From the sequence record NC_134264.1: 64,000 nt of DNA; one strand, written 5' to 3'. This DNA comes from Escherichia phage Lindwurm. Positions 50,236 through 63,508 of this stretch are shown piece after piece. The translations under genes and the position numbers were made by a program. Positions within the stretch are counted from its first letter, which is position 1. Every line of letters starts with the position of its first letter. The notes beneath the pieces were generated by a model. It worked only from the letters and a program-made list of their open reading frames with translations, searched no databases and was not told the DNA's origin.

Positions 50236-50836
50236 GTCGGATTTGCACATTGTGTTTCTAGAAATTTATGGTCGGATTTGCACAATTGCCTAAGTTTTTA
50301 GGAACATATAATCTCCTGAAAATGGCAGCATTATTTCGGGCCGAAGGCCCATGATTGCCTGAGTTTTTAGAGCCACAAGAATTTTCACTTGTCAAGCTAT
50401 TTTGCCCCATTTTGCTAATAAAATTTTACTTTATCTCGCCCCAAGCCCAATTAACCTAAATTATCTCAACTCTTCCCCAAAAACGCAGCAAATCAGGCGT
50501 TGCACGCCACACATGCTGCCCCCCTAGCTTCTCCCCTAATTTTCTCTCGCTCTCTCAACTTCTCCCCAAATCCACACAACCCACACCCTCCAATCGAAGT
50601 CACAAAAATCTTGTCGGTTTCGCACATCTTAATCCTAGAAAAACCATGTCGGATTTGCACATACCCCACAGGATTCGAACGCAGTTCGAGATTGCTGGAG
50701 TTTTTGGGAAAACTCCTTGTCGGATTTGCACACTATAAAAATTTTTCGGGTCGGATTTGCACACTACCAAAAATTGTCGGATTCGCACATACACGCCCGC
50801 ACGTAACACCCGTGGAGCAATGTCGGTTTTGCACAA
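50236..50836 (+). repeat. eight dispersed copies of 14-mer GTCGG(A/T)TT(T/C)GCACA
   Basis: Copies at 50236, 50270, 50612, 50647, 50718, 50749, 50775 and 50821. Confidence 0.8.
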
Positions 50837-50838
50837 AA

Positions 50839-50860
50839 GCGCAGGGCAATTGCCCTGCGC
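50839..50860. repeat. perfect 22-bp palindrome GCGCAGGGCAATTGCCCTGCGC
   Basis: Read directly; self-complementary. Confidence 0.8.
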
Positions 50861-50867
50861 TAAATAC

Positions 50868-51040
50868 GAATGATAATAAGAATCAATCTCATTTAGAAAG
50901 TGGAATGAGAATGATAATAATTCGCATTTAGAAAATGAAATGAGAATCAATCTCATTTAAGAAGTGAAACGATTCTCATTTAGAAAGTGGAATGCAAATG
51001 ATAATGATTTGCATTTAAGAATGGAAGTGAGAAACACTGT
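50868..51040. repeat. array of AATGAGAAT / ATTCTCATT-type palindromic half-sites
   Basis: Repeated TCTCATTTAGAAAGTGGAATG and ATGCAAAT...ATTTGCAT units. Confidence 0.65.
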
Positions 51041-51048
51041 TATTTAAG

Positions 51049-51141
51049 TTATCCACAGACTTATTAACAGCACGATTTGACTTGACAAAATCCTAGCCAT
51101 TTTGAGGCGTTATCAACAGACTTATCCACAGCTTATCCTAC
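51049..51141 (+). promoter_or_regulatory. DnaA-box cluster
   Basis: Perfect TTATCCACA at 51049 and 51122; 8/9 TTATCAACA at 51110; 7/9 at 51133. Confidence 0.65.
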
Positions 51142-51158
51142 TGTATAAATATACAGTA
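51139..51158. promoter_or_regulatory. LexA (SOS) box-like palindrome
   Basis: TACTGTATAAATATACAGTA, 19/20 to consensus TACTGTATATATATACAGTA. Confidence 0.6.
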
Positions 51159-51348
51159 GTCCTATGTAGTGAATAATTCTAATATAGCGTTAAAACGTCC
51201 TAGATCGCATTCTAACGCGTTTAATTTTGGTGGGGATACTAAAACAAGGGCAAAATTGGAGGAGGCTTGAAAATTAGTTAGCCCGCTAACGATCACACAA
51301 GGCGACACGTAACACCCTAACCATTAGCAGGCTAACCATCGCGGGCGC

Positions 51349-51369
51349 GGTTAAATGAGAATGATTCTC
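51349..51369. repeat. 21-bp palindrome AAATGAGAAT-G-ATTCTCATTT
   Basis: Perfect 10-bp arms; same half-site family as the 50868-51040 array. Confidence 0.7.
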
Positions 51370-51524
51370 ATTTGAGAGTTGGGGGCACTTCCTGATAGTT
51401 GCGCCCCGTGATTATTATAGTAGTGGGCAACCGTTACGCTTTGCCCACTCCCGCCACTCATCTTGATGCCTAGACTTGCGACGGCGTACTAAAAACCGCT
51501 TGTACCAGTGATTAAACCATCGTT

Positions 51525-53772: not shown

Positions 53773-54759
53773 TTACTCGTTTTCGGTGTTAGTGGTAAAA
53801 GTAGAGATATCGATACCTTTTACCATTTCATCGATCATCTCAGCGATGTTAAAACTTTGCACCATTTCTAACATTGCCGCTTCCATAGCCGCCCCTGCTA
53901 CCGCTTTCGCTTTCTGGTTAGTCGGGGCGTACTGGTCAACCGCTACACTCAGCAGGTTAGCGATCACTACACGACCAATCGGCGTATCAATATAGCCTTT
54001 GATCATAAACGGTGCTTTTTTAGCCGCTACTTTCGTGATTTGAGTTAGTGCAATTTTACCAGCTTCCAGTTTTGCAGCGTTTACAACAGCGGATTTATTA
54101 GCGGCAACGATATTAGCGATCTTGGTCATGGTATTTTTTCCTTTGTTTTCAGTAGTTTGAGTATTAACGCTTTGAGTGTTAGAGCTTACAACCTGTTTTT
54201 CAATATTGTCAATACTTTCTTCCCTTTCGAAAGAAAATCCGGCGTCAACAATATCGCCTTCATATACACGATCATATAATTCCGGTGGCAATAAAAAATT
54301 ACCGTTATCATCAAAAGCCAATATAGCTGCATAACGATAGCCATCATAATCTGAACGATTCCACCCAACTGATAAATGACGCCAAAATGAATCGAGAAAA
54401 TTTTCTACATCATAAAGATCATTATCATTAGCCTTATAGTTTTCTATCGAGAAAACTTCTAAGCCCGCCCCAGTATCGTAGGCTTTTACTGTGCTACCTT
54501 TTACTATTACAAAATCAGCGTCCGGCCCCCGACTAGTGAGCAATTGATAATCCTGATTATATAAAACAAGCGTTGCCCCTTGTTTATATAACGGTAGAAA
54601 ACTATTCATATTATATGCATCATAATCATCAAGAAAATTATGATGAATAGTTTCAACCTTGTTAATAAAATGTTTAATGCTGGTTGACTTGCTACCATCC
54701 AGCAGGTTGCGCAATGCACCTTTTAAAACGGTGGCGTTATCAGGTTTATACAGCCTCAT
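53773..54759 (-). CDS. hypothetical protein
   Basis: 328-aa ORF, first gene of minus-strand operon. Confidence 0.55.
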   Translation of the reverse strand: MRLYKPDNATVLKGALRNLLDGSKSTSIKHFINKVETIHHNFLDDYDAYNMNSFLPLYKQGATLVLYNQDYQLLTSRGPDADFVIVKGSTVKAYDTGAGLEVFSIENYKANDNDLYDVENFLDSFWRHLSVGWNRSDYDGYRYAAILAFDDNGNFLLPPELYDRVYEGDIVDAGFSFEREESIDNIEKQVVSSNTQSVNTQTTENKGKNTMTKIANIVAANKSAVVNAAKLEAGKIALTQITKVAAKKAPFMIKGYIDTPIGRVVIANLLSVAVDQYAPTNQKAKAVAGAAMEAAMLEMVQSFNIAEMIDEMVKGIDISTFTTNTENE

Positions 54760-55023
54760 TTGTTCGGCCTCCTCGTTAATCGGTGAGTGAATGATAAAGG
54801 TAATTTTCTAGCATAGGCAAATATTATTTTACCTTTTTATTTTCCTTGCCTAGCGCCTATTTTTATGATAACCGCGCAGCGATGTAGTAAAGAGCAAAAC
54901 ACGGCGAAGCCACCAGGCCGTCGCATTGAGGCTTTGCTTTAATATTACCTAACAGCGTTTAGCTCGTTAGAACGCGATTTAGGCCGCTTAAAATTGATTG
55001 CAGTCGTTAACACTACCTTTTTA

Positions 55024-55043
55024 CCCTGTATATTTATACAGTA
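55024..55043. promoter_or_regulatory. LexA (SOS) box-like palindrome
   Basis: CCCTGTATATTTATACAGTA fits CTGT-N8-ACAG with AT-rich spacer. Confidence 0.55.
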
Positions 55044-55051
55044 GGATAACC

Positions 55052-55133
55052 TGTGGATAAGTCTGTGTAAAAGTCCTTATATTGCCGCCTATCGTGTCAA
55101 GTTATTTTGTGCTGTGGATAACATTGTGGATAA
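55052..55133 (-). promoter_or_regulatory. DnaA-box cluster
   Basis: Three perfect TGTGGATAA boxes at 55052, 55113 and 55125. Confidence 0.65.
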
Positions 55134-55174
55134 CTTAAATGATAGTGGTTCTCACTTAGGCCGATAGTTTCTTA

Positions 55175-55222
55175 TAGTTATTATTTACTGTAGTTATTAT
55201 TTATTATAATTATTATTTCTCA
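55175..55222 (+). repeat. three tandem 16-bp AT-rich iterons
   Basis: TAGTTATTATTTACTG / TAGTTATTATTTATTA / TAATTATTATTTCTCA. Confidence 0.65.
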
Positions 55223-55416
55223 TTAATTTATAGGTATATTATATATCATTAAATAGTTAGCTGGCTAATGAGATTTTCCGTGATTAATAGTCTGCTAATA
55301 ATTTAATCCGGTACAATCCACCAGCATGATTATCATCCTAGCAATTATTAGTCTGCTATCTTTCCGATACACACTAACAAATAAAAGTCAATTAATTTAT
55401 TTCATAAAATAAGTAG

Positions 55417-55502
55417 TTATCCACTGGAAAACAAAAGTCAAGTGGATAACTAGGAAAATTTCATTTTTGCTTTTGGGGATAAGTTATCAACAAGGCTAGA
55501 AT
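55417..55502. promoter_or_regulatory. additional imperfect DnaA boxes
   Basis: TTATCCACt at 55417, AGTGGATAA at 55441, TTATCAACA at 55494. Confidence 0.45.
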
Positions 55503-55895
55503 GCGCCTAAAACGCTCCAGAACGCGATAAAGTTTTTAGCCATCCCATCATAAGGGGATAAGCCGTTTATCGCTACCACGAGCTTTTTAGATTTTGTCAA
55601 GTAGGGCAAAGCAAATATAAATGAAAAAATTACTTGCCTATATGCTATGTTTTGTGGTATTCGCGCGCCCGTTTCTTTTAATTTTAGGCCGTCGCCGGAC
55701 GTGGTGCGGTGGATCGTGTCTTTACGTTTCTTTACAAAAATAAGGTTGCGCCATTTTTAGTATTTGCTATTATTTATCTCGTAGGGCGGCAATGACGAAC
55801 TACACGGCGGGAAGTTTACCGCCACGCTCTTTAAAAATTGGGTATATCTTAAAGCCTATCGGCGGTAAACTTATACATTATAAGGAATCGACGAT

Positions 55896-56099
55896 ATGAA
55901 ACAAACGCTTTTGATCACTGGCAAGCCTAGCAAGGCACTAGATAGCAAAACAAAAAATTTGTTGACAGTAGCGCAAAGATCGGTAAAATATCGATTTAAG
56001 CAATACAAGAAAGGCCGCCAGCAAGGTCTAGAAATGATCTGGCGAAACATTATGATTGACTTGAAAGAAAATCATAAAAAATCTCAAAAAATTGTTTGA
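55896..56099 (+). CDS. small basic hypothetical protein
   Basis: 67-aa ORF with AAGGAA RBS. Confidence 0.4.
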   Translation: MKQTLLITGKPSKALDSKTKNLLTVAQRSVKYRFKQYKKGRQQGLEMIWRNIMIDLKENHKKSQKIV

Positions 56100-56326
56100 C
56101 ACCCTAGCCGATAGGCTTTAAGATGTACCCAGTTCGATAAGAGCGATAACTTGATAAAATTTGACGGTCGGTGCTTACCATAATGCATCCCGCCCCCTAA
56201 CTGGGATATAGCGGCCTACGTGGAGTTCTTTAAATTGGTTAAACTGGCGAGCGGATTGTTACTTATTACCTGCTACTTTCTAGCAGGTAATGCGGAACAA
56301 TCCCCAAATAACTAGGAGTTTATACT

Positions 56327-56578
56327 ATGCAAAACGTTATTACCGCGCCGAAAGTTGGTCAATCCGTCTTCATTCCTTTCGTTACTAAAACGGATGAATT
56401 AACCGGAAAAGCCGAACGTATTAAAGGTGCGGCGCTTATGCCGTTCGATACAATCGACGCGGTATATGCTGAAAATGAACGCAGTAACAACGGCAAGCCG
56501 ATTTATAACGTTCGCGTTAAATCCGGCGACGTTGTAAAGGTTGTTCAACGCAACGAAAAATGGGAAGCTGTATTGTAA
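56327..56578 (+). CDS. hypothetical protein
   Basis: 83-aa ORF with TAGGAGTTTATACT RBS context. Confidence 0.5.
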   Translation: MQNVITAPKVGQSVFIPFVTKTDELTGKAERIKGAALMPFDTIDAVYAENERSNNGKPIYNVRVKSGDVVKVVQRNEKWEAVL

Positions 56579-56679
56579 TGTAGTGTTAACTTTATATTCC
56601 CCTGAAATATGGGGAATATATGGATTAACATTTAGTTAATCATTAAATCCCTTAAATTAAACTAATAGGAGTTTTTACC

Positions 56680-57087
56680 ATGACTAACGCTAAAACCGCA
56701 AAATTTGCATGGAATGAAGAAAATACCCAAAAAGCTGTTTCTATGTACCAGCAGTTAATCAATGAAAACGGTTTAGATTTTGCAAATAGCGACGGCTTAA
56801 AAGAGATTGCGAAAGCAGTAGGCGCGGCTTCTCCCGTATCCGTTCGGTCAAAATTGACCAGTGCAAAAGCCTATCAAAAAAGCGATAAGCCGCGCAAAGT
56901 TGGCGGCGGTAGTTCTATTCGTAAGGCTCACTATGTGCGCGTTATTGCAAAACACGCTATCGATTCCGGCATTATCAAAGACGCCGATGATCTGGCAAGC
57001 CTTGAAAGTGCTAAACTTGAAACGCTGGACGCCGTAGCGCAACTGTTAGGCGTTGCCGATGAAGTGAAACAGGCCGCAGGGGAATAA
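56680..57087 (+). CDS. A2: A2-like pre-early DNA-binding protein
   Basis: 135 aa (size of T5 A2); sits immediately upstream of A1-like gene. Confidence 0.5.
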   Translation: MTNAKTAKFAWNEENTQKAVSMYQQLINENGLDFANSDGLKEIAKAVGAASPVSVRSKLTSAKAYQKSDKPRKVGGGSSIRKAHYVRVIAKHAIDSGIIKDADDLASLESAKLETLDAVAQLLGVADEVKQAAGE

Positions 57088-57465
57088 TAGTTATATCTTG
57101 CCCCCTTCTAGTTAGGGGGCAATAATATAACTGTTTAGCGATAGTTATTTTCTTCCCTTAAATCAGGAGTTTTAAAAATGATTTTCTTCCCTACTGAATC
57201 CTTAATTCTAGGCTTATTTATTATGGCGGCCTCGTTATTGTTCTCTTATTTTCAAAATGATTTAGATTCATATTATTTTAAACGTAAATCTAAATTAGCG
57301 AAGCGTTTAGGTCTGATTTGTTTTATTGCCGCCGTTGCTTGTGGTGTTAGTTCTAGCCTAGTGCCTTTAAATTAATGTTGCAAATTATAACGCCTATTAT
57401 TCGAGGCGTTATATTTGGCAATATTGCCGTTATTAACCTAATCCCTTTAATGGAGTTTTATTACT

Positions 57466-59136
57466 ATGATTATTTCCGCAGAAAAACAAACCGTTATCCT
57501 GAAAATGGCCGCTGATTTCAATTTCTACGGTAAACGCCTGCGCGCCACTAAATTGGAAGTTTGTGACGATATTTCGAAAGCGGTATACGATACTACTAAA
57601 CACTCCACCGCTATCTGCGACTGGCTGGAAGCAAATAAACCAGCGAAACCAAAAGTAGCAAAAGTAGCAAAAGCCATTAAAAACGATGAGCGCCCCGAAG
57701 CGGCTGGGATTGTTTCTAGTACCGTGGAACAGTGGGAAGTAAAACAAGGTAAACGTTTTATTATTACGTCGATTCAGAATAATACTTTCCCGCATAAAAA
57801 CTTTTTAGCCTCACTGGAGCAATTTGCTAAATATATCGGCGCTGATTTGCTTGTTTCTAAGTATATTTATAATAAAAACGGCTTTCAAAATGGGGAAGGT
57901 GCCGACGGAATCATATTTGATTCCGTGTTTGATAAATATATTTGCAGCAAAAACGTGTTTTTGAATAACCGCCGTTTCGCTTTCATGGCTGAAATTAATG
58001 TTTTGCCCACCGCAGATTATCCGCTTTCAGGATTCGCAGAAACTGCAACGGCTTTAAATATTGAGGGGCTGGCAATTGGTCACGCTAAAATTACCGCTGA
58101 AAGCGTGCCAGCTTTAAAAGGTGAAGTAGTGCGCCGTATGTATTCAACCGGAACGGCAACACTCAAAAACTACATTCAGCAGAAAGCAGGACAGAAAGCG
58201 GAAGCACTTCATAATTTTGGTGCGCTGATTGTCGAGTTTGACGATGATGGTGAGTTTTTTGTTCGCCAGCTTGAAACAATGGACGAAAGCGGCATGTTTT
58301 ACGATTTGAATATTTGCGCCACTCCTTCAGGATGTTTTGAAACGTCGGGGCATGTTTTAGGCTTGCAGTATGGCGATATTCATGCAGAAAAACTAGATGA
58401 GGCTTGCGCTCAAGCGTCTTGGGGTCATGGGGATACTTATGGGCTTGTGGATATTCTCAAACCAAAATATCAGTTTGTACATGATGTGCATGATTTTACA
58501 TCCCGCAATCACCATAACCGCGCATCCGGTGTATTCCTAGCGAAACAGTATGCCGCCGGACGTGATAAGGTTATTGATGATCTTATCGATACGGGTCGCG
58601 TGCTGGAATCGATGGAACGTGATTTTAGTCAAACGATCATTGTCGAATCGAATCACGATTTGGCGCTATCCCGTTGGCTTGATGATCGTAATGCTAACAT
58701 TAAGGACGATCCCGCAAACGCGGAACTATATCACCGCCTGAATGCGGCTATTTACGCGGCAATCGGTGAACACGACGAAACGTTTAACGTGCTAGATTAT
58801 GCGCTGCGCAAGGTTGCAGGTTGTGAATTTAACGCCATTTTCCTGACAACTGACCAATCGTTTAAAATTGCAGGCATTGAATGCGGCGTACACGGTCACA
58901 ACGGCATTAACGGCAGTCGTGGCAATCCTAAGCAGTTTAAGAAACTGGGTAAATTGAACACGGGGCACACCCATACCGCTAGCATTTATGGCGGCGTATA
59001 TACCGCTGGCGTAGCTGGTAGTCTGGATATGGGTTACAACGTTGGCGCGTCAAGCTGGACGCAGACGCATTTAATTACCTATGCAAACGGTCAGCGCACT
59101 TTGATTGACTTTAAGAATGGTAAATTCTTTGCGTAA
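57466..59136 (+). CDS. A1: A1-like pre-early protein with metallophosphoesterase motifs
   Basis: 556 aa (size of T5 A1); GDIH and VHDVHD blocks. Confidence 0.65.
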   Translation: MIISAEKQTVILKMAADFNFYGKRLRATKLEVCDDISKAVYDTTKHSTAICDWLEANKPAKPKVAKVAKAIKNDERPEAAGIVSSTVEQWEVKQGKRFIITSIQNNTFPHKNFLASLEQFAKYIGADLLVSKYIYNKNGFQNGEGADGIIFDSVFDKYICSKNVFLNNRRFAFMAEINVLPTADYPLSGFAETATALNIEGLAIGHAKITAESVPALKGEVVRRMYSTGTATLKNYIQQKAGQKAEALHNFGALIVEFDDDGEFFVRQLETMDESGMFYDLNICATPSGCFETSGHVLGLQYGDIHAEKLDEACAQASWGHGDTYGLVDILKPKYQFVHDVHDFTSRNHHNRASGVFLAKQYAAGRDKVIDDLIDTGRVLESMERDFSQTIIVESNHDLALSRWLDDRNANIKDDPANAELYHRLNAAIYAAIGEHDETFNVLDYALRKVAGCEFNAIFLTTDQSFKIAGIECGVHGHNGINGSRGNPKQFKKLGKLNTGHTHTASIYGGVYTAGVAGSLDMGYNVGASSWTQTHLITYANGQRTLIDFKNGKFFA

Positions 59137-59203
59137 TTAAATTGATAAGCTGGGAATATTCCCAGCTTAAATACCTTATTAAATTAATTGGAGTTTTATA
59201 GAT

Positions 59204-59596
59204 ATGAAAAAGCAAAATATTCCATTCGATCGCGCTCAGTCCTCAATTGTTCTAGTTTATTCTAATGGCGAACGTTACCACGTCGAGGCGGGGCACGTTA
59301 TTGATGAATTATTAGATTTCAATGATGCGATGCAGGTTACAACATTTGCATATATGCAGGGCAAACTAACCAGCCATATTAAAGCAAAAGGCGTTTATGT
59401 TGACACGATGAAACAAGAAACAATCATTATTGACGCAGTAAAATCCGGCCTAGCCTTTGCAGTTGTCGCGCCTTGCCCCGCTTGCCTTGATGATCAATTG
59501 ATTTCTGCAAAAGTATATACTTGTGCGGGGATTCGTTCCAGCGTATCCGGCGAAGATATTAGTTTTATCGCTGATGCGTTGGCTTATGGTCTTTAA
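59204..59596 (+). CDS. hypothetical protein
   Basis: 130-aa ORF with TTGGAGTTTTA RBS context. Confidence 0.5.
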   Translation: MKKQNIPFDRAQSSIVLVYSNGERYHVEAGHVIDELLDFNDAMQVTTFAYMQGKLTSHIKAKGVYVDTMKQETIIIDAVKSGLAFAVVAPCPACLDDQLISAKVYTCAGIRSSVSGEDISFIADALAYGL

Positions 59597-59676
59597 TAGT
59601 TGATTTATTATTACCCGCTTATAAATAGCGGGTAATGCTGGATAAACTAAATCCCTTTAATGGAGAACGTAACAAA

Positions 59677-60411
59677 ATGAATCAAGTTAAAACGAATATT
59701 ACCCGTAATTTCCCGCATATTTCCCGCGTCATGATTTGGGATCTGGACGGCACTATCATTAATTCTTTCCATCGTGTAGCGCCTTGCTTTGATAGCGAGG
59801 GCAATTTAGATTTAAATAAGTATAAAAATGAGGCTTGCAAACATCATTTAATAATGCAAGATACCTTATTGCCATTAGTTGAATATATGCGCCAGTGCAT
59901 GAATGATGCAAATACTTTAAACGTTATTTGTACCGCTCGACTGATGAGCAAGTCAGACTATTATTTCTTGCGCAAACAAGGCTTGCGCGGTCGTGATAAA
60001 AGCAATATCCGTGTATTTTCCCGCGATACACTACACAAGTATTTTGAGGCTGATAAAGTTAGCGAGATATACCACAGCAAAGACGCAGTATACAAATCTT
60101 ATTATTTTGAATTATTTAAACAGCTATATCCGAACGCTGATTTCACAATGATTGATGATCATAAAGGTGTGCTATCAGCGGCGGCGTCATACGGATTTAA
60201 AACGCTGGACGCACAAGCCGTTAACGATATTCTATCAATCGGCGTGGCATTGATAGGCGGAACCTTTATTGATGAATCTCTCGATGATGATAATGATTAT
60301 CAGTTCCTAGCTGACCGATTGAAATTATGTTGGGAAAGTATGACCGAGGAAGAACGCGCAGAATATAGTTGCAGCCCTCAACAATATATTGAGAAATTAA
60401 AAGTTGCGTAA
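59677..60411 (+). CDS. dmp: HAD-family 5'-deoxynucleotidase (Dmp-like)
   Basis: 244 aa from ATG 59677; WDLDGTII HAD motif; RBS context AATCCCTTTAATGGAG shared with A1. Confidence 0.6.
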   Translation: MNQVKTNITRNFPHISRVMIWDLDGTIINSFHRVAPCFDSEGNLDLNKYKNEACKHHLIMQDTLLPLVEYMRQCMNDANTLNVICTARLMSKSDYYFLRKQGLRGRDKSNIRVFSRDTLHKYFEADKVSEIYHSKDAVYKSYYFELFKQLYPNADFTMIDDHKGVLSAAASYGFKTLDAQAVNDILSIGVALIGGTFIDESLDDDNDYQFLADRLKLCWESMTEEERAEYSCSPQQYIEKLKVA

Positions 60412-60568
60412 TAATTAAAGTTGAAATAGTCACGGTGTGTAATGATAACATGCCGTGACTATTAGCTTGCTAAGTACCGGGCGGTAATGAGACTCATTCT
60501 CATCTGGGAGGCCACTGGACACACCTCCATGTGTAATCTTATGAAATTTGGCAAAAGTCAAATTAGCG

Positions 60569-60778
60569 CTATTTACGGACTGACTGCCTGAGAATGGACT
60601 GCCATAGAGGGTCAGTCTTAACAAGATTATTGATGTACTCAATAGCTTCATCAAATCTCATAAATCCTTCTGGGATTTCCGAAGACTTAGGAAAAACTGA
60701 GAGCATCTCCTGGGTGAGACCTCTCTTTTCAATTTCTTCCTTAGTTAATTTAAACTGCTCATAGTTATTCTTCACCAC
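60569..60778 (-). CDS. hypothetical protein
   Basis: 69-aa ORF. Confidence 0.4.
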   Translation of the reverse strand: MVKNNYEQFKLTKEEIEKRGLTQEMLSVFPKSSEIPEGFMRFDEAIEYINNLVKTDPLWQSILRQSVRK

Positions 60779-60989
60779 TCACCTTAGCCCGAAATCTCTT
60801 CCGCGACGCCCGAGATCCATCCGACCACTCCCGCTCAAACTCCGCACGTTTCTCGTCAAACTTCCGCTCCCTTTCCGCAATCTCCCGCGTCACCCCCGCA
60901 ATATATTCCCGATGCTTGTTAATTGCCGCAGTCGTCCCGAAAACTCCCGCGAGTATCCCGATAATAAAAGCAATTATAATACTAAACAT
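60765..60989 (-). CDS. small membrane protein
   Basis: 74 aa, N-terminal TM helix. Confidence 0.4.
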   Translation of the reverse strand: MFSIIIAFIIGILAGVFGTTAAINKHREYIAGVTREIAERERKFDEKRAEFEREWSDGSRASRKRFRAKVSGEE

Positions 60990-61398
60990 TATTTATATTC
61001 CCGCAACTTACGTTCAATACGAGCTAAGTGGTTATCCAAGACACACTGCCCTAGAATTACCACAACTAATAAAACAATAATTATTACTCCCATTAAATCC
61101 ACCCCGCCATAGCTGCTAACCAAAAACCTACGAAGATTAGGAATAATACAAAACCAAATCCGTAAATATTAATCCACGCTTCGTACACTTCTCCGCGTCT
61201 GTTCTTTCTTTTATTTGACATATCTTTCGTGCCCCCGTAAATGTGGTATTTTAAAATATTTTATAATTTGTGCATAACCAACCATGCTTGTGACTTCCTA
61301 GAAGGACTTCTACTTTTCTTACATAGTGGTTTCTGCCAATATACCATCCAAGAAATAAAAAATTTAGTTTACTTGGATGTCTTTTTGCTTTATACTAA

Positions 61399-61665
61399 TT
61401 ACAGGTAGTTAGATTGCTCTAGTTTAAATTTACAATCACCATATTTAAGGTCAAACTGACTGAGATCCCACCACCCAAACTTAGTACGGAGCTGTACTAC
61501 TGGGAAGCGATCTCCCTTAATACGAACTTTTTGAACCTTGAGACCGTAATGTTCTTCTCCCGCACCACCAAAAGATTTTACAAATCCCGTGCAAAATGGT
61601 TTGGGAGCAGGTGCACAACCAGATAACATAACTGCGGCAACTAGTGCAATAACAAACTTTTTCAT
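61399..61665 (-). CDS. llp: lipoprotein (Llp-like receptor-blocking lipoprotein)
   Basis: Lipobox MKKFVIALVAAVMLSGC; divergent from and adjacent to receptor-binding protein gene. Confidence 0.55.
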   Translation of the reverse strand: MKKFVIALVAAVMLSGCAPAPKPFCTGFVKSFGGAGEEHYGLKVQKVRIKGDRFPVVQLRTKFGWWDLSQFDLKYGDCKFKLEQSNYL

Positions 61666-61750
61666 ATTTATCTCTCCATTTCTAATTTATGAATCTATTA
61701 TAGCAAAATAGAGGGATGAAAGCAAATACATTTTTATAATAGGAGATTAT

Positions 61751-63508
61751 ATGGGTTTTTTCGCTGGAAAATATAGCGATGGTAAGACCGTACTATCTTT
61801 AAATACTGAATCTGGTGGTGACATTAATCGTCACTATAGTCCAAATAATAATAGTATTTTTCATAGTGATATGCCATTTGTCCTAGTTGATGGTACTTAT
61901 GAGGCTGGGTTAGGCGATGCCGGAAATGGGTTTTTTGTATGTCAGATGCCCTCTGACATAATAAATATTAAATCTAATGACCCAGGTAGAGTTATACTAA
62001 CTGCCATTGAGATTAATGGTACTCATAGGGCTTTTCTTAATGGTACTCAGAGTAAGGTGGGTCAAACTATAGTTGCCACTCAAGCAGACCCCTTTAGATC
62101 TTTTGCTAGCGTTTCCCAGACTAGTGGATTTGCATTTGGTAATAGCCTGGCATCTGGAACATATAACTATAACTCATCTATAGGTCATGAAGAATCTATC
62201 TCTAGAAACGGTACTGGTGGAACCACCCTACATAGCACTTATCATGGTATAGTTAGGCCAGGTGCAGGAGCTCCAGTAGGTATTACTGTTGCAGAAGCTT
62301 TTGCACAGCTGGGTTTTCCTACTAATAGTAGTACAGTACCCATAGATGGTAATAACCAATATTACTGGGACCCAGGATGGATGTCTCCTTTAGGATCAGC
62401 ATACAGAGGACACGATTGGTTTTATGTTTGTAGCTCTAACATACGTGGGTATGGTGGAGTAAGACAAGGTCTTCCTGGTAATGTAAACACTATGTATCAT
62501 GATGGGGGTAATAGATTTGTTTGTAGGGGTTCTACAACCAATTTAGCTAATCAATCTGGTAATGCTACAATATTACAGGATTGGTATAACATAACTCCTA
62601 CTAAGGTTATTTGGTACGTTTTGAATTTAAGATATTCTAATGGTAATATGGGTATCTCTGGTAATCCTTTTACTGGTTCAGATATTCTTATCTCTCCCTC
62701 TAATTTTACTATAAAAGGGGTTAGTCTTCCTAATACTGGGTATAAGTTTATTAACCAGAATGCTTTTGGTAACTTAGGTTATAGGCCAGATATGGAATAC
62801 GTCGGAAATAACGCAGCGTACACTGGAGCCTTCGGAGATACCACTGCAAGGTGTGAACTTGTAGGCTCTAGTAATGGAAGTTTATGGTCTCCTGTAGACT
62901 ATGGAGGGGCTAAGTCTCAAATTAGTATTTACAAATTCGGAGCAGGTAAGCAATGGTACGTAAACTCAAGTAATAACACTATTGGTAACGAACATGGTAT
63001 TGTTTGGGGGCCTTCTTCAGTTCCTCTGAGACTTTTTAGTGGAAATGTTGGTAGTTCTTACATGGGGGATGATATTACTCCTTACTATCCAGGAACTGGA
63101 GATAGATATGTGGCTTTATCTACTATTGGACTAGGAATTCCAGGAGGTAATGCTACCATTATTCTTACTACTGAAGTTATATCTGGTAATCTTAATTGTG
63201 CTGGTGTTCCAGCTAATACATGGAATAACGGTGTATTTCAGGTGCAGGGAAGAAGGGCTTATATCTATAGTAATGGAGATGCAATATTCCACCAGATTTT
63301 AACATTACCTGTAGGTTACTTAGTACCCTTTCATACTACATCTGCATTTAGATACACACCTAATAATGCACTAAGTAGAAATAGTTTCATATATACAGTT
63401 AAAAATCTAGGAAATGGAAATGTAGAGTTAGGGGTAGTTATGCACGTAAGTTTAGGTAGTGCAGTTTTCCTACCTAGATTAAGAGTAACAGTTCAACGCC
63501 TTACCTAA
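61751..63508 (+). CDS. oad: receptor-binding tail protein (pb5/Oad-like)
   Basis: 585-aa Gly/Asn/Ser/Thr-rich protein next to divergent lipoprotein gene; AGGAGA RBS. Confidence 0.5.

What the first reader, a model, noticed from the sequence alone, without database searches (positions are those of the whole stretch)
55896..60411. A2-A1-dmp pre-early block with a shared extended RBS context
ORFs of 135, 556 and 244 aa match the sizes of the T5 pre-early proteins A2, A1 and Dmp; the 556-aa protein has metallophosphoesterase motifs and the 244-aa protein a HAD DxDGT motif. Their starts share an extended upstream element ((T)AAATCCCTT(T)AATGGAG before A1 and dmp, TAGGAGTTTT(T)A-type before A2 and two neighbours). 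Each gene is followed by a GC-rich perfect palindrome without a T-run.
Basis: partly seen in the sequence, partly recalled or inferred. Interest (0 to 1): 0.5.

Follow-up and report, generated by a model that had tools for sequence, protein, structure and literature searches.

The report
T5-type pre-early operon with modular leaders
This is the well-known "first-step-transfer" host-takeover operon (hdi-007-A2-005-A1-002-dmp) of a T5-like phage, and its genes are separated by a conserved, apparently undescribed cassette: a strong RNA hairpin, then a "CCC + A/T-rich" box, then a GGAG ribosome-binding site.

Summary

The shared leader is real. An exact 16-mer, AATCCCTTTAATGGAG, precedes both A1 and dmp. 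It is one case of a wider "CCC + A/T-rich" box lying 9-19 nt upstream of GGAG. This box occurs in 22 of 39 pre-early leaders of five diverged T5-like phages, against 2.6 expected. It is strand-specific (22 sense, 2 antisense) and rare before T5 early genes (4 of 77).

Six of the seven genes are followed by a strong hairpin (-16 to -26 kcal/mol) with no T-run. Relatives show compensatory changes and a 21:3 excess of G·U over A·C pairs, so the hairpins act in the sense RNA. They are not terminators.

Consensus boxA antitermination sequences follow the pre-early promoters in every relative examined.

The gene block is already known. The cis-architecture is a modest, apparently undescribed addition whose function is inferred, not shown.

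The parts
55792..55899 (+). T5.009-like 35-codon ORF, just upstream of the finding; overlaps a small hairpin (55806-55823) and boxA #1
   Evidence: Read from the sequence. T5.009 occupies the same position in T5. Coding status was not tested. The gene is reported in <15% of Demerecviridae (bioRxiv 10.64898/2026.04.02.716235).
55826..55836 (+). boxA #1, GCTCTTTAAAA, a perfect match to the Nus-factor boxA consensus GYTCTTTAANA
   Evidence: The consensus is from bioRxiv 10.1101/091223. It matches the E. coli rrnH spacer boxA TGCTCTTTAAAAATCTGG. It is conserved at this position in every T5-like locus examined.
55896..56099 (+). hdi (T5.008 homologue, 67 aa, DUF7416)
   Evidence: 87% identical to T5.008. 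Pfam DUF7416, E 5.8e-37.
55962..55989 (+). P-H22-type sigma-70 promoter inside hdi (TTGACA-16-TAAAAT, 11/12)
   Evidence: T5 annotates promoter P-H 22 inside T5.008.
56096..56124 (+). P-D/E20-type promoter (TTGACA-17-TAAGAT, 10/12)
   Evidence: T5 annotates promoter P-D/E 20 at the equivalent position.
56225..56235 (+). boxA-like #2, GTTCTTTAAAT (10/11; the critical C at position 4 is kept)
   Evidence: In Epseptimavirus-type relatives the same promoter is followed at about +17 by a perfect TGCTCTTTAACAATTTGG.
56253..56303 (+). Long leader hairpin upstream of 007; its 3' arm ends in AATCC of the 007 box
   Evidence: I1. -27.7 kcal/mol, z -7.6.
56299..56318 (+). 007 leader: AATCCCCAAATAACTAGGAG (box plus SD)
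   Evidence: The third C varies in relatives.
56327..56578 (+). T5.007 homologue (83 aa, DUF7177)
   Evidence: 89% identical to T5.007. Pfam E 4.7e-42.
56576..56638 (+). Intercistronic RNA hairpin after 007 (core 56593-56620), no T-run
   Evidence: -26.2 kcal/mol, z -6.2; antisense -20.3. One stem position shows all four Watson-Crick pairs among relatives.
56646..56671 (+). A2 leader: AATCCCTTAAAT box, then GGAG at 56668-56671
   Evidence: The box columns are invariant in 24 distinct relatives.
56680..57087 (+). A2 (135 aa, DNA-binding pre-early protein)
   Evidence: 100% identical to T5 A2. PHROG 1725 'DNA binding protein', E 4e-52.
57086..57135 (+). Intercistronic RNA hairpin after A2 (core 57098-57122), no T-run
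   Evidence: -26.2 kcal/mol, z -7.1. T5 has a different hairpin sequence in the same slot.
57153..57169 (+). 005 leader: TTCCCTTAAATCAGGAG (box plus SD)
57178..57375 (+). T5.005 homologue (65 aa, two-TM membrane protein)
   Evidence: 95% identical. PHROG 4820.
57373..57426 (+). Intercistronic RNA hairpin after 005 (about 21 bp, two-tier), followed by the conserved palindrome GGCAATATTGCC (57418-57429)
   Evidence: -23.3 kcal/mol, z -5.1; antisense -18.0..
57440..57455 (+). A1 leader: AATCCCTTTAATGGAG (box plus SD)
   Evidence: Near-invariant in 29 distinct relatives.
57466..59136 (+). A1 (556 aa): N-terminal three-helix domain, beta-rich middle, C-terminal metallophosphoesterase domain
59146..59169 (+). 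Perfect 24-nt palindrome hairpin after A1, no T-run
   Evidence: I6. -16.1 kcal/mol, z -5.3.
59171..59193 (+). 002 leader: ATACCTTATTAAATTAATTGGAG (box degraded to ACC here; ATCCC in most relatives)
59204..59596 (+). T5.002 homologue (130 aa)
   Evidence: 95% identical. PHROG 4576.
59597..59649 (+). Intercistronic RNA hairpin after 002 (about 21 bp, two-tier), abutting the dmp box
   Evidence: -22.8 kcal/mol, z -6.8; antisense -16.9. Compensatory A-T/G-C change at stem position 20/47.
59650..59665 (+). dmp leader: AATCCCTTTAATGGAG (box plus SD)
59677..60411 (+). dmp (244 aa, deoxynucleoside-5'-monophosphatase, HAD motif I DLDGT)
   Evidence: 95.1% identical to T5 Dmp. Weak HAD hits only.
60418..60468 (+). 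3'-terminal RNA hairpin after dmp (holds two G·U pairs), no T-run
   Evidence: -25.6 kcal/mol, z -7.1; antisense -17.6. Multiple compensatory pairs in relatives.

Best explanation
Shown: this is the leftward pre-early (first-step-transfer) operon of a Tequintavirus, hdi-007-A2-005-A1-002-dmp. Its proteins are the known T5 host-takeover set. A1 is a metallophosphoesterase-fold protein; published work shows it is needed and sufficient for host DNA degradation, and that A1 and A2 are both needed for second-step DNA transfer. A2 is a DNA-binding protein. Dmp is a dNMP phosphatase.

Inferred: host sigma-70 RNA polymerase starts at the strong P-H22 and P-D/E20-type promoters. The transcripts carry rrn-type boxA sequences, so polymerase is probably converted by NusB/NusE and the other Nus factors into a fast, termination-resistant form. 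That form runs through the whole operon and, on the left terminal repeat, off the DNA end.

Every internal cistron is built as the same module. (i) A very stable hairpin without a U-tract follows the upstream stop codon. Its constraint is on the sense RNA (shown). Its role is inferred: a 3'-exonuclease barrier and/or processing site and an insulator between cistrons, not a terminator. (ii) A strand-specific pyrimidine plus A/U-rich 'CCC box' ((A/T)TCCC(T/C)WWA) follows. (iii) A GGAG Shine-Dalgarno lies 9-19 nt further on, with a U/A-rich 8-11 nt spacer to AUG.

The box is most likely part of the translation-initiation region: a single-stranded landing or enhancer segment that lets ribosomes start independently on each cistron of a transcript made faster than it is translated.
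For: Identity: protein identities of 87-100% to T5.001-T5.008 in the same order. DNA is 90-94% identical to T5-like phages. PHROG families agree.

Hairpins: z -5.1 to -7.1. No U-tract, and none is called a terminator. Of 112 consensus pairs in relatives, 23 show two or more Watson-Crick types, with 21 G·U types against 3 A·C types. Sense RNA is more stable than antisense in 5 of 6 slots here and in 123 of 161 distinct panel sequences. Unrelated hairpin sequences occupy the same slot in different relatives.

Box: 22 of 39 leaders against 2.6 +/- 1.5 in shuffles, maximum 9 of 2000. Sense 22, antisense 2. All five strict-box hits in the + arm lie in leaders. In T5 the box is in 9 of 17 pre-early and 4 of 77 early leaders. 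Box columns are about as conserved as the SD.

boxA: a perfect consensus at 55826. There are 1-5 sense-strand copies upstream of A1 in every T5-like locus, including Vibrio and Proteus phages, and where a promoter is legible they sit about 15-35 nt after its -10.
Against: None of the cis-element functions was measured; all are inferred from sequence.

The distance from box to SD (9-19 nt) and from hairpin to box both vary, so no rigid geometry points to one mechanism. The box is absent or degraded before some genes (002 in this window; hdi and the other first cistrons). It is weak in the Vibrio relative (2 of 10).

In three of six leaders, folding predicts that the box pairs with the SD, which would argue for repression rather than enhancement.

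The two imperfect boxA copies are not statistically remarkable within the window alone: there are 28 one-mismatch hits against 17.8 +/- 4.4 expected.

The panel sequences are related, so the counts are not independent events.

Stable hairpins downstream of genes are not unique to the pre-early class in T5 (inconclusive).
Confidence: 0.6

Rival explanations
1. The CCC box is the recognition site of a class-specific post-transcriptional regulator. This would be a phage or host RNA-binding protein, or an endoribonuclease, that acts on all internal pre-early cistrons at once, for example to time or shut off pre-early protein synthesis. T4 RegA or RegB acting at early-gene ribosome-binding sites is the model.
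For: The box is specific to the pre-early class (9 of 17 against 4 of 77 in T5) and strand-specific. It lies next to the SD and is conserved across genera while the surrounding spacer diverges. Pre-early expression is known to be shut off in an A1-dependent way.
Against: No candidate RNA-binding protein was identified. The published shut-off is attributed to A1 acting on RNA polymerase at promoters. The first cistrons (hdi, 011) lack the box although they belong to the same temporal class.
Confidence: 0.2
2. The box is an internal anti-Shine-Dalgarno. (U)UCC(C) pairs with GGAG to form a weak hairpin that partly masks the ribosome-binding site. This could tune translation down, protect GGAG from cleavage, or make initiation depend on temperature or a helicase.
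For: UUCC/UCCC is complementary to GGAG. Partition-function folding gives summed box-SD pair probabilities of 1.65-2.9 for the A2, 005 and dmp leaders. One relative has SD GGAG changed to GGAA opposite UUCC, which improves the pairing (L022).
Against: No such pairing is predicted for the A1, 002 or 007 leaders (0.01-0.16). The helices are only 3-5 bp. The loop length varies from 6 to 17 nt. No covariation beyond CC/GG was seen.
Confidence: 0.12
3. The hairpins are leaky terminators or attenuators that create a gradient of expression along the operon. boxA-modified polymerase reads through them.
For: The stems are GC-rich and very stable, lie directly after stop codons, and boxA is present upstream. 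T5 annotators called similar structures in the other arm 'putative rho-independent terminators'.
Against: None has a U-tract, and the terminator scan calls none. [quoted passage not shown] G·U-rich A/U lower stems of 20-25 bp are not terminator-like.
Confidence: 0.1
4. The palindromes and shared leaders are DNA-level features: binding sites for A2 or a host protein, cruciforms, or recombination linkers that shuffle gene cassettes. On this reading the leader similarity is only shared ancestry or gene conversion.
For: Genes come and go at these junctions. T5.003 is absent here, and different hairpin 'alleles' sit in the same slot. The A1 and dmp leaders are identical over 16 nt in this phage but differ at two positions in T5, as gene conversion would produce.
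Against: G·U against A·C is 21:3 and the sense strand is more stable; DNA palindromes would show no such asymmetry. The hairpin sequences differ between slots, so they are not a common operator. The box is oriented with the gene in 22 of 24 cases and persists at 42% A1 identity.
Confidence: 0.06

Closest known systems
Bacteriophage T5 pre-early (FST) region, genes T5.001-T5.008 (NC_005859)
   Same: Same genes in the same order and orientation, with the same promoters. A2 is 100% identical, A1 94.8% and Dmp 95.1%. The same hairpin-box-SD architecture is present in T5 itself.
   Different: T5.003 is missing. Several intercistronic hairpins are different sequences in the same slots. hegG is absent upstream. 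The best overall DNA match is Salmonella phage L6jm at 93.9%.
Phage T7 early (class I) operon with RNase III processing hairpins (own knowledge)
   Same: Both are polycistronic host-takeover mRNAs made by host polymerase from very strong promoters. In both, cistrons are separated by stable two-tier hairpins without U-tracts, which leave protective 3' stem-loops.
   Different: RNase III cleavage was not tested here. Two of the six hairpins are simple 9-12 bp stems, too short for a typical RNase III substrate. T7 sites have no CCC box.
rrn operon and lambdoid nut boxA Nus-factor antitermination
   Same: The 11-nt consensus GYTCTTTAANA has the critical C4. The extended match to the rrnH spacer boxA is 15 of 17. 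The element lies in the 5' transcribed region after the promoters.
   Different: The transcript is a translated phage mRNA, not rRNA. No lambda N-type protein or clear boxB/boxC was identified. Nus dependence of T5 is not documented in the searched literature.
A/U-rich translational enhancers upstream of the SD (T7 gene 10 'epsilon' UUAACUUUA, atpE leader; own knowledge)
   Same: The element lies within about 20 nt 5' of the SD in highly expressed phage genes. It shares CUUUAA with epsilon and has an A/U-rich tail.
   Different: It has an invariant CCC core. It shows no special complementarity to 16S rRNA (duplex -10.3 against -9.2 +/- 1.7 for shuffles). Enhancer activity was not tested.
Calcineurin-like metallophosphoesterase nucleases (PolD DP1, Mre11/SbcD)
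   Different: No Pfam or PDB sequence-level match. A1 also has an extra N-terminal three-helix domain and a beta-rich middle domain.

Membership tests
T5 A1 / 'DNA transfer protein' (PHROG 1745) | Sequence homology to T5 A1 over the full length | tested here: met
   94.8% identity over 556 of 556 aa. PHROG 1745, E 5.5e-243.
T5 A1 / 'DNA transfer protein' (PHROG 1745) | Position in the FST/terminal-repeat operon between A2 and dmp | tested here: met
   Colinear with T5 and with Klebsiella, Pantoea, Proteus and Vibrio relatives.
T5 A1 / 'DNA transfer protein' (PHROG 1745) | Host DNA degradation and second-step-transfer activity | not testable with these tools
   Known for T5 A1 only from the literature.
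Calcineurin-like metallophosphoesterase superfamily (A1 C-terminal domain) | Five metal-binding motifs: DxH, GD, GNH(D/E), H, GHxH | tested here: met
   GD304xH306, H339-D340, (S)N396-H397-D398, H476-G-H478 and G500-H501-x-H503 are invariant in 15 and in 40 homologues down to 34-41% identity.
Calcineurin-like metallophosphoesterase superfamily (A1 C-terminal domain) | Beta-sandwich MPE fold | tested here: met
Calcineurin-like metallophosphoesterase superfamily (A1 C-terminal domain) | Sequence-profile match to Pfam Metallophos or to solved MPEs (a diagnostic, not a defining feature) | tested here: not met
   No Pfam hit at E <= 1 for any of 15 homologues, and no PDB sequence hit to an MPE. The family is too diverged for HMM detection.
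T5 A2 DNA-binding protein | Sequence identity and synteny | tested here: met
   100% over 135 aa. PHROG 1725, E 4.3e-52.
T5 Dmp / HAD-superfamily phosphatase | Homology to T5 deoxynucleoside-5'-monophosphatase | tested here: met
   95.1% over 244 aa.
T5 Dmp / HAD-superfamily phosphatase | HAD motif I DxDx(T/V) | tested here: met
   IWDLDGT at residues 21-27 of the 244-aa protein. It aligns to motif I of HAD hydrolase 2msn.
T5 Dmp / HAD-superfamily phosphatase | Significant whole-domain HAD profile match | tested here: inconclusive
   Pfam HAD_2 E 0.083, below the cutoff. Best PDB hit E 0.48. No NCBIfam hit.
Intrinsic (Rho-independent) terminators | GC-rich stem-loop | tested here: met
Intrinsic (Rho-independent) terminators | U-tract immediately 3' of the stem | tested here: not met
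   None of the six intercistronic hairpins is called by the terminator scan. The tails read by eye have no T-run. They are therefore not filed as terminators.
boxA (NusB/NusE) antitermination site | Match to GYTCTTTAANA with C at position 4 | tested here: met
   55826-55836 is perfect. 56225-56235 and 54885-54895 (-) match 10 of 11 with C4 kept.
boxA (NusB/NusE) antitermination site | Located in the transcribed leader downstream of a promoter, on the sense strand | tested here: inconclusive
   This is clear in Proteus, Vibrio and Epseptimavirus-type relatives, where boxA lies about +15 to +22 after TTGACA-N17-TATAAT-type promoters. In the window, copy #2 lies about 94 nt after the predicted P-D/E20 start. 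The promoter feeding copy #1 is only a visual guess (TTGTCA-16-TATAAA at about 55591-55618).
boxA (NusB/NusE) antitermination site | Conservation in relatives beyond chance | tested here: met
   14 perfect sense-strand matches in about 18 kb upstream of A1 in six diverged loci. The 64-kb window has 3 perfect matches on both strands together.
boxA (NusB/NusE) antitermination site | NusB/NusE binding and Nus-dependent read-through | not testable with these tools
   No paper holding both 'boxA' and 'bacteriophage T5' was found in the library.
RNase III processing signals (T7 early type) | About 20 bp or more of coaxial dsRNA, often with an internal loop | tested here: inconclusive
   Four of six hairpins are two-tier, 20-25 bp (after 007, A2, 005, 002). 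The one after A1 is a 10-bp stem, and T5's post-A2 hairpin is 9 bp.
SD-upstream translational enhancer | Conserved element within about 20 nt 5' of the SD of highly expressed genes | tested here: met
SD-upstream translational enhancer | Raises translation when present | not testable with these tools
   Needs reporter fusions or toeprinting.

The most novel reading that the evidence does not exclude
T5-like phages express their first-step-transfer genes through a dedicated RNA programme borrowed from the host rRNA operons. boxA would recruit the Nus antitermination complex so that polymerase outruns ribosomes. The hairpin-CCC-box-GGAG cassette would be a class-specific signal, read by a still unidentified host or phage factor, that governs processing, independent translation and coordinated shut-off of every internal pre-early cistron.
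Probability: 0.25. Interest if true: 0.55.

Novelty: new member of a known kind. Interest (0 to 1): 0.3.

Why it matters
The genes themselves add nothing new. This is one more T5-like phage carrying the textbook A2-A1-dmp takeover block.

The useful part is the regulatory reading. T5 pre-early expression is the first event of a two-step DNA injection that is still poorly understood, and how the class is expressed so fast and then shut off remains open.

A conserved boxA behind every pre-early promoter predicts that T5-like phages depend on the host Nus factors. The class-specific leader cassette offers defined targets (CCC box, hairpins) for mutagenesis.

The result also helps annotation. The real dmp start is 59677, not the longest ORF. 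The hairpins should not be labelled terminators. Dmp is widely mislabelled 'polynucleotide kinase'.

Tried and rejected
1. Box as an rRNA-pairing enhancer. The best duplex with E. coli 16S is -10.3 kcal/mol, against -9.2 +/- 1.7 for shuffled boxes. The 23S value, -9.8, is no better. Rejected.

2. Known RNA families. An Rfam E-value scan of 54500-61000 gave only three chance-level hits.

3. The box's TTTAAT as a -10 element of internal promoters. Only the A1 leader has a plausible -35, and a start there would remove the SD. The promoter scan does not call these sites. Rejected.

5. Within-window statistics for boxA with one mismatch are not significant (28 hits against 17.8 expected). The case rests on position and cross-phage conservation.

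6. The within-window test of the 16-mer allowing three mismatches is uninformative (2 hits against 1.06 expected). The exact-match and shuffle test is the relevant one.

7. Whether stable downstream hairpins are specific to the pre-early class in T5. This was confounded by tRNAs, promoters and true terminators in early intergenic regions, so it is inconclusive.

8. An alternative pairing of the A2 box with the 3' arm of the preceding hairpin (I4). It is thermodynamically uncompetitive and not general.

9. Literature searches for a prior description of the leader motif, the hairpins or boxA in T5 found nothing. Wang et al. 2005 (Virology), the T5 genome paper, is not held, so prior mention there cannot be excluded.

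Full report
**What the region is.** ORF listing and direct reading of window 55000-61500 show seven + strand genes between 55896 and 60411. A megablast of the region finds 550 phage records, almost all Salmonella, Escherichia or Klebsiella T5-like phages. The best is Salmonella phage L6jm at 93.9% over 99% of the query, and the annotations include A1, A2 and 5'-deoxynucleotidase.

I fetched the annotated T5 genome and compared proteins by BLASTP. The block is colinear with T5.008 (hdi, 87%), T5.007 (89%), A2 (100%), T5.005 (95%), A1 (94.8% over 556 aa), T5.002 (95%) and dmp (95.1% over 244 aa). T5.003 is missing.

Downstream lie a lipoprotein gene and a 585-aa receptor-binding-protein gene. 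Upstream lie the other pre-early arm on the minus strand and an injection-stop-like repeat region. So the window shows one terminal-repeat copy joined to the unique region.

**Protein claims.** A1 has no Pfam, NCBIfam or PDB sequence match. An alignment of 15 homologues down to 34% identity, and a second of 40, show invariant GD304xH306, H339-D340, N396-H397, H476-G-H478 and H501-x-H503. This is the canonical five-motif signature of calcineurin-like metallophosphoesterases.

This agrees with a 2026 preprint that calls A1 a predicted metallophosphatase and shows it is necessary and sufficient for host DNA degradation (bioRxiv 10.64898/2026.04.02.716235).

Dmp carries IWDLDGT, which is HAD motif I. 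It gives only sub-threshold HAD profile hits. Its assignment rests on 95% identity to the characterised T5 enzyme.

**The shared leader.** AATCCCTTTAATGGAG occurs exactly twice in 64 kb, 10 nt before the A1 start and 11 nt before the dmp start. That 16-nt identity exceeds the longest shared string in 300 shuffles of the six intergenic regions, where the maximum was 12. AATCCCTTAAAT precedes A2, TTCCCTTAAATCAGGAG precedes 005, and AATCCCCAAATAACTAGGAG precedes 007.

I printed all intergenic regions for T5 and for Klebsiella, Pantoea, Proteus and Vibrio T5-like phages, whose A1 is 74, 65, 42 and 34% identical. The general unit is a 'CCC + A/T-rich' box, (A/T)TCCC(T/C)WWA, lying 9-19 nt upstream of a GGAG Shine-Dalgarno.

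- With the regex CCC[ACT]0-2[AT]3 at -40 to -13, 22 of 39 pre-early leaders carry it, against 2.6 +/- 1.5 in composition-matched shuffles (maximum 9 of 2000).
- The reverse-complement pattern occurs in only 2 of 39.
- All five strict-box hits in the + arm lie in leaders.
- In T5 itself the box is in 9 of 17 pre-early leaders but only 4 of 77 early leaders.
- In 22-29 distinct Tequintavirus/Epseptimavirus sequences per gene, the box columns are about as conserved as the SD and more conserved than the spacer between hairpin and box.
- First cistrons behind promoters (hdi, 011) lack the box and use AAGGAA-type SDs.

**The palindromes.** Inverted repeats follow 007, A2, 005, A1, 002 and dmp. As sense RNA they fold at -26.2, -26.2, -23.3, -16.1, -22.8 and -25.6 kcal/mol, with z -5.1 to -7.1. 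None has a T-run, and the terminator scan calls none.

Most perfect GC-rich cores sit on imperfect A/U-rich lower stems, so four of the six are two-tier hairpins of 20-25 bp.

Across relatives the slot is always filled, but often by an unrelated hairpin sequence. Within alignable groups, 23 of 112 consensus pairs show two or more Watson-Crick types. One position after 007 shows C-G, G-C, A-T and T-A. G·U pair types outnumber A·C types 21 to 3.

The antisense strands fold less well in 5 of 6 slots here and in 123 of 161 distinct panel sequences. The panel is phylogenetically related, so these are not independent counts. Even so, the direction is consistent and is what selection on the sense transcript predicts. 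DNA palindromes or protein operators would show no G·U/A·C asymmetry.

**boxA.** The same intergenic print-outs showed (C/T)GCTCTTTAA(A/C)AAT(T/C)TGG behind the pre-early promoters of every relative. In the window, GCTCTTTAAAA at 55826-55836 matches the gamma-proteobacterial boxA consensus GYTCTTTAANA perfectly (bioRxiv 10.1101/091223). It matches the E. coli rrnH spacer boxA in 15 of 17 positions. A 10/11 copy follows the P-D/E20-type promoter (56225-56235), and another lies on the minus-strand arm (54885-54895).

One-mismatch copies are not rare in this A/T-rich genome: 28 against 17.8 expected. The argument therefore rests on position and on 14 perfect sense-strand copies in about 18 kb upstream of A1 in six diverged loci. 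I found no paper linking boxA or Nus factors to T5.

**How it most likely works.**

- Shown: gene identities; the MPE fold of A1; conservation, strand specificity and class specificity of the box; RNA-level constraint on the hairpins; absence of U-tracts; conservation of boxA.
- Inferred: host polymerase starting at P-H22 and P-D/E20 is modified through boxA into a fast, termination-resistant complex that ignores the hairpins.
- Inferred: the hairpins protect or define the 3' ends of cistron-sized RNA segments and insulate neighbouring initiation regions. The RNase III hairpins of the T7 early operon are the closest analogy.
- Inferred: the box provides an open landing or enhancer segment for independent initiation at each internal cistron.

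Folding predicts that the box pairs weakly with GGAG in three of six leaders, so a mild anti-SD role is a live rival. A class-specific regulator binding the box is also not excluded.

A role in pairing with 16S rRNA is rejected, as are Rfam families and internal promoters.

**Verdict.** The gene block is already known biology in a new T5-like isolate. The conserved hairpin-box-SD cassette and the boxA elements are, as far as the searchable literature shows, undescribed. They belong to known kinds of element and their function is untested. Interest is modest.

Noticed in passing
window 55806-55839 (+); also 54884-54896 (-): A consensus boxA (CGCTCTTTAAAAATT), preceded by a small hairpin GGCGG-N8-CCGCC, lies inside the 35-codon T5.009-like ORF just upstream of hdi. 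A related TGCTCTTTACTAC heads the minus-strand pre-early arm. The 009 'gene' may be mainly an RNA signal. It is reported in <15% of Demerecviridae and could not be deleted, for cloning reasons.
   Followed up: partly
window 55052-55492 and 51049-51130: Clusters of DnaA-box sequences (TTATCCACA, 0-1 mismatch): seven between the divergent pre-early arms and three near the injection-stop region. This matches the DnaA-box arrangement described by Davison (bioRxiv 10.1101/866236).
   Followed up: partly
window about 50240-51380 (minus strand): Injection-stop-like repeat region. GTGCAAATCCGAC occurs five times and TGTGCGAAWCCGAC twice. There are also several AAATGAGA-containing palindromic units.
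   Followed up: no
window 57418-57429: The 12-nt palindrome GGCAATATTGCC lies between the post-005 hairpin and the A1 box. It is nearly invariant in 29 distinct relatives and recognisable in the Klebsiella phage. It overlaps the 3' side of the hairpin's lower stem, so two alternative pairings are possible.
   Followed up: no
loci L001-L046, slots after A2, A1, 002 and dmp: Unrelated hairpin sequences replace one another in the same intergenic slot among otherwise 90-98% identical phages. Small ORFs such as T5.003 come and go at TAA(A)TTAAAT junctions. This suggests cassette exchange at these linkers.
   Followed up: partly
window 59677-60411: Dmp falls in PHROG 415, 'polynucleotide kinase'. 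Many GenBank T5-like records therefore label it polynucleotide kinase. This looks like a propagated misannotation of a dNMP phosphatase.
   Followed up: partly
window 59635-59676: The longest ORF for dmp starts at an upstream in-frame ATG (258 aa). That ATG lies in the 3' arm of the post-002 hairpin and has no SD. The conserved GGAG-N11-ATG start at 59677 gives the 244-aa T5-length protein.
   Followed up: yes
A1 homologues; loci L047-L060; proteins P0062-P0101: A1-like proteins occur in more than 1100 phage records, including non-T5 phages of Rhizobium, Caulobacter, Brevundimonas, Flavobacterium and Cellulophaga. Metagenomic relatives replace the T5-type N-terminus with HTH_23, HTH_38 or sigma-70 region 4-like domains. 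The T5-type N-terminus itself models as a three-helix bundle.
   Followed up: partly
T5 locus L061, early genes (10.9-49.5 kb): Many T5 early genes share their own stereotyped promoter-leader, TATAAT-N-(C/T)ATAAATTGATGAGAGGA-N-ATG. It differs from the pre-early CCC-box leader, so each temporal class has its own leader type.
   Followed up: no
window 60412-63508: Directly after dmp and its hairpin come small minus-strand ORFs, an 88-aa lipoprotein-like gene (61399-61665, -) and a 585-aa receptor-binding-protein-like gene (61751-63508, +). This is the arrangement at the right terminal-repeat junction of T5-like genomes.
   Followed up: partly
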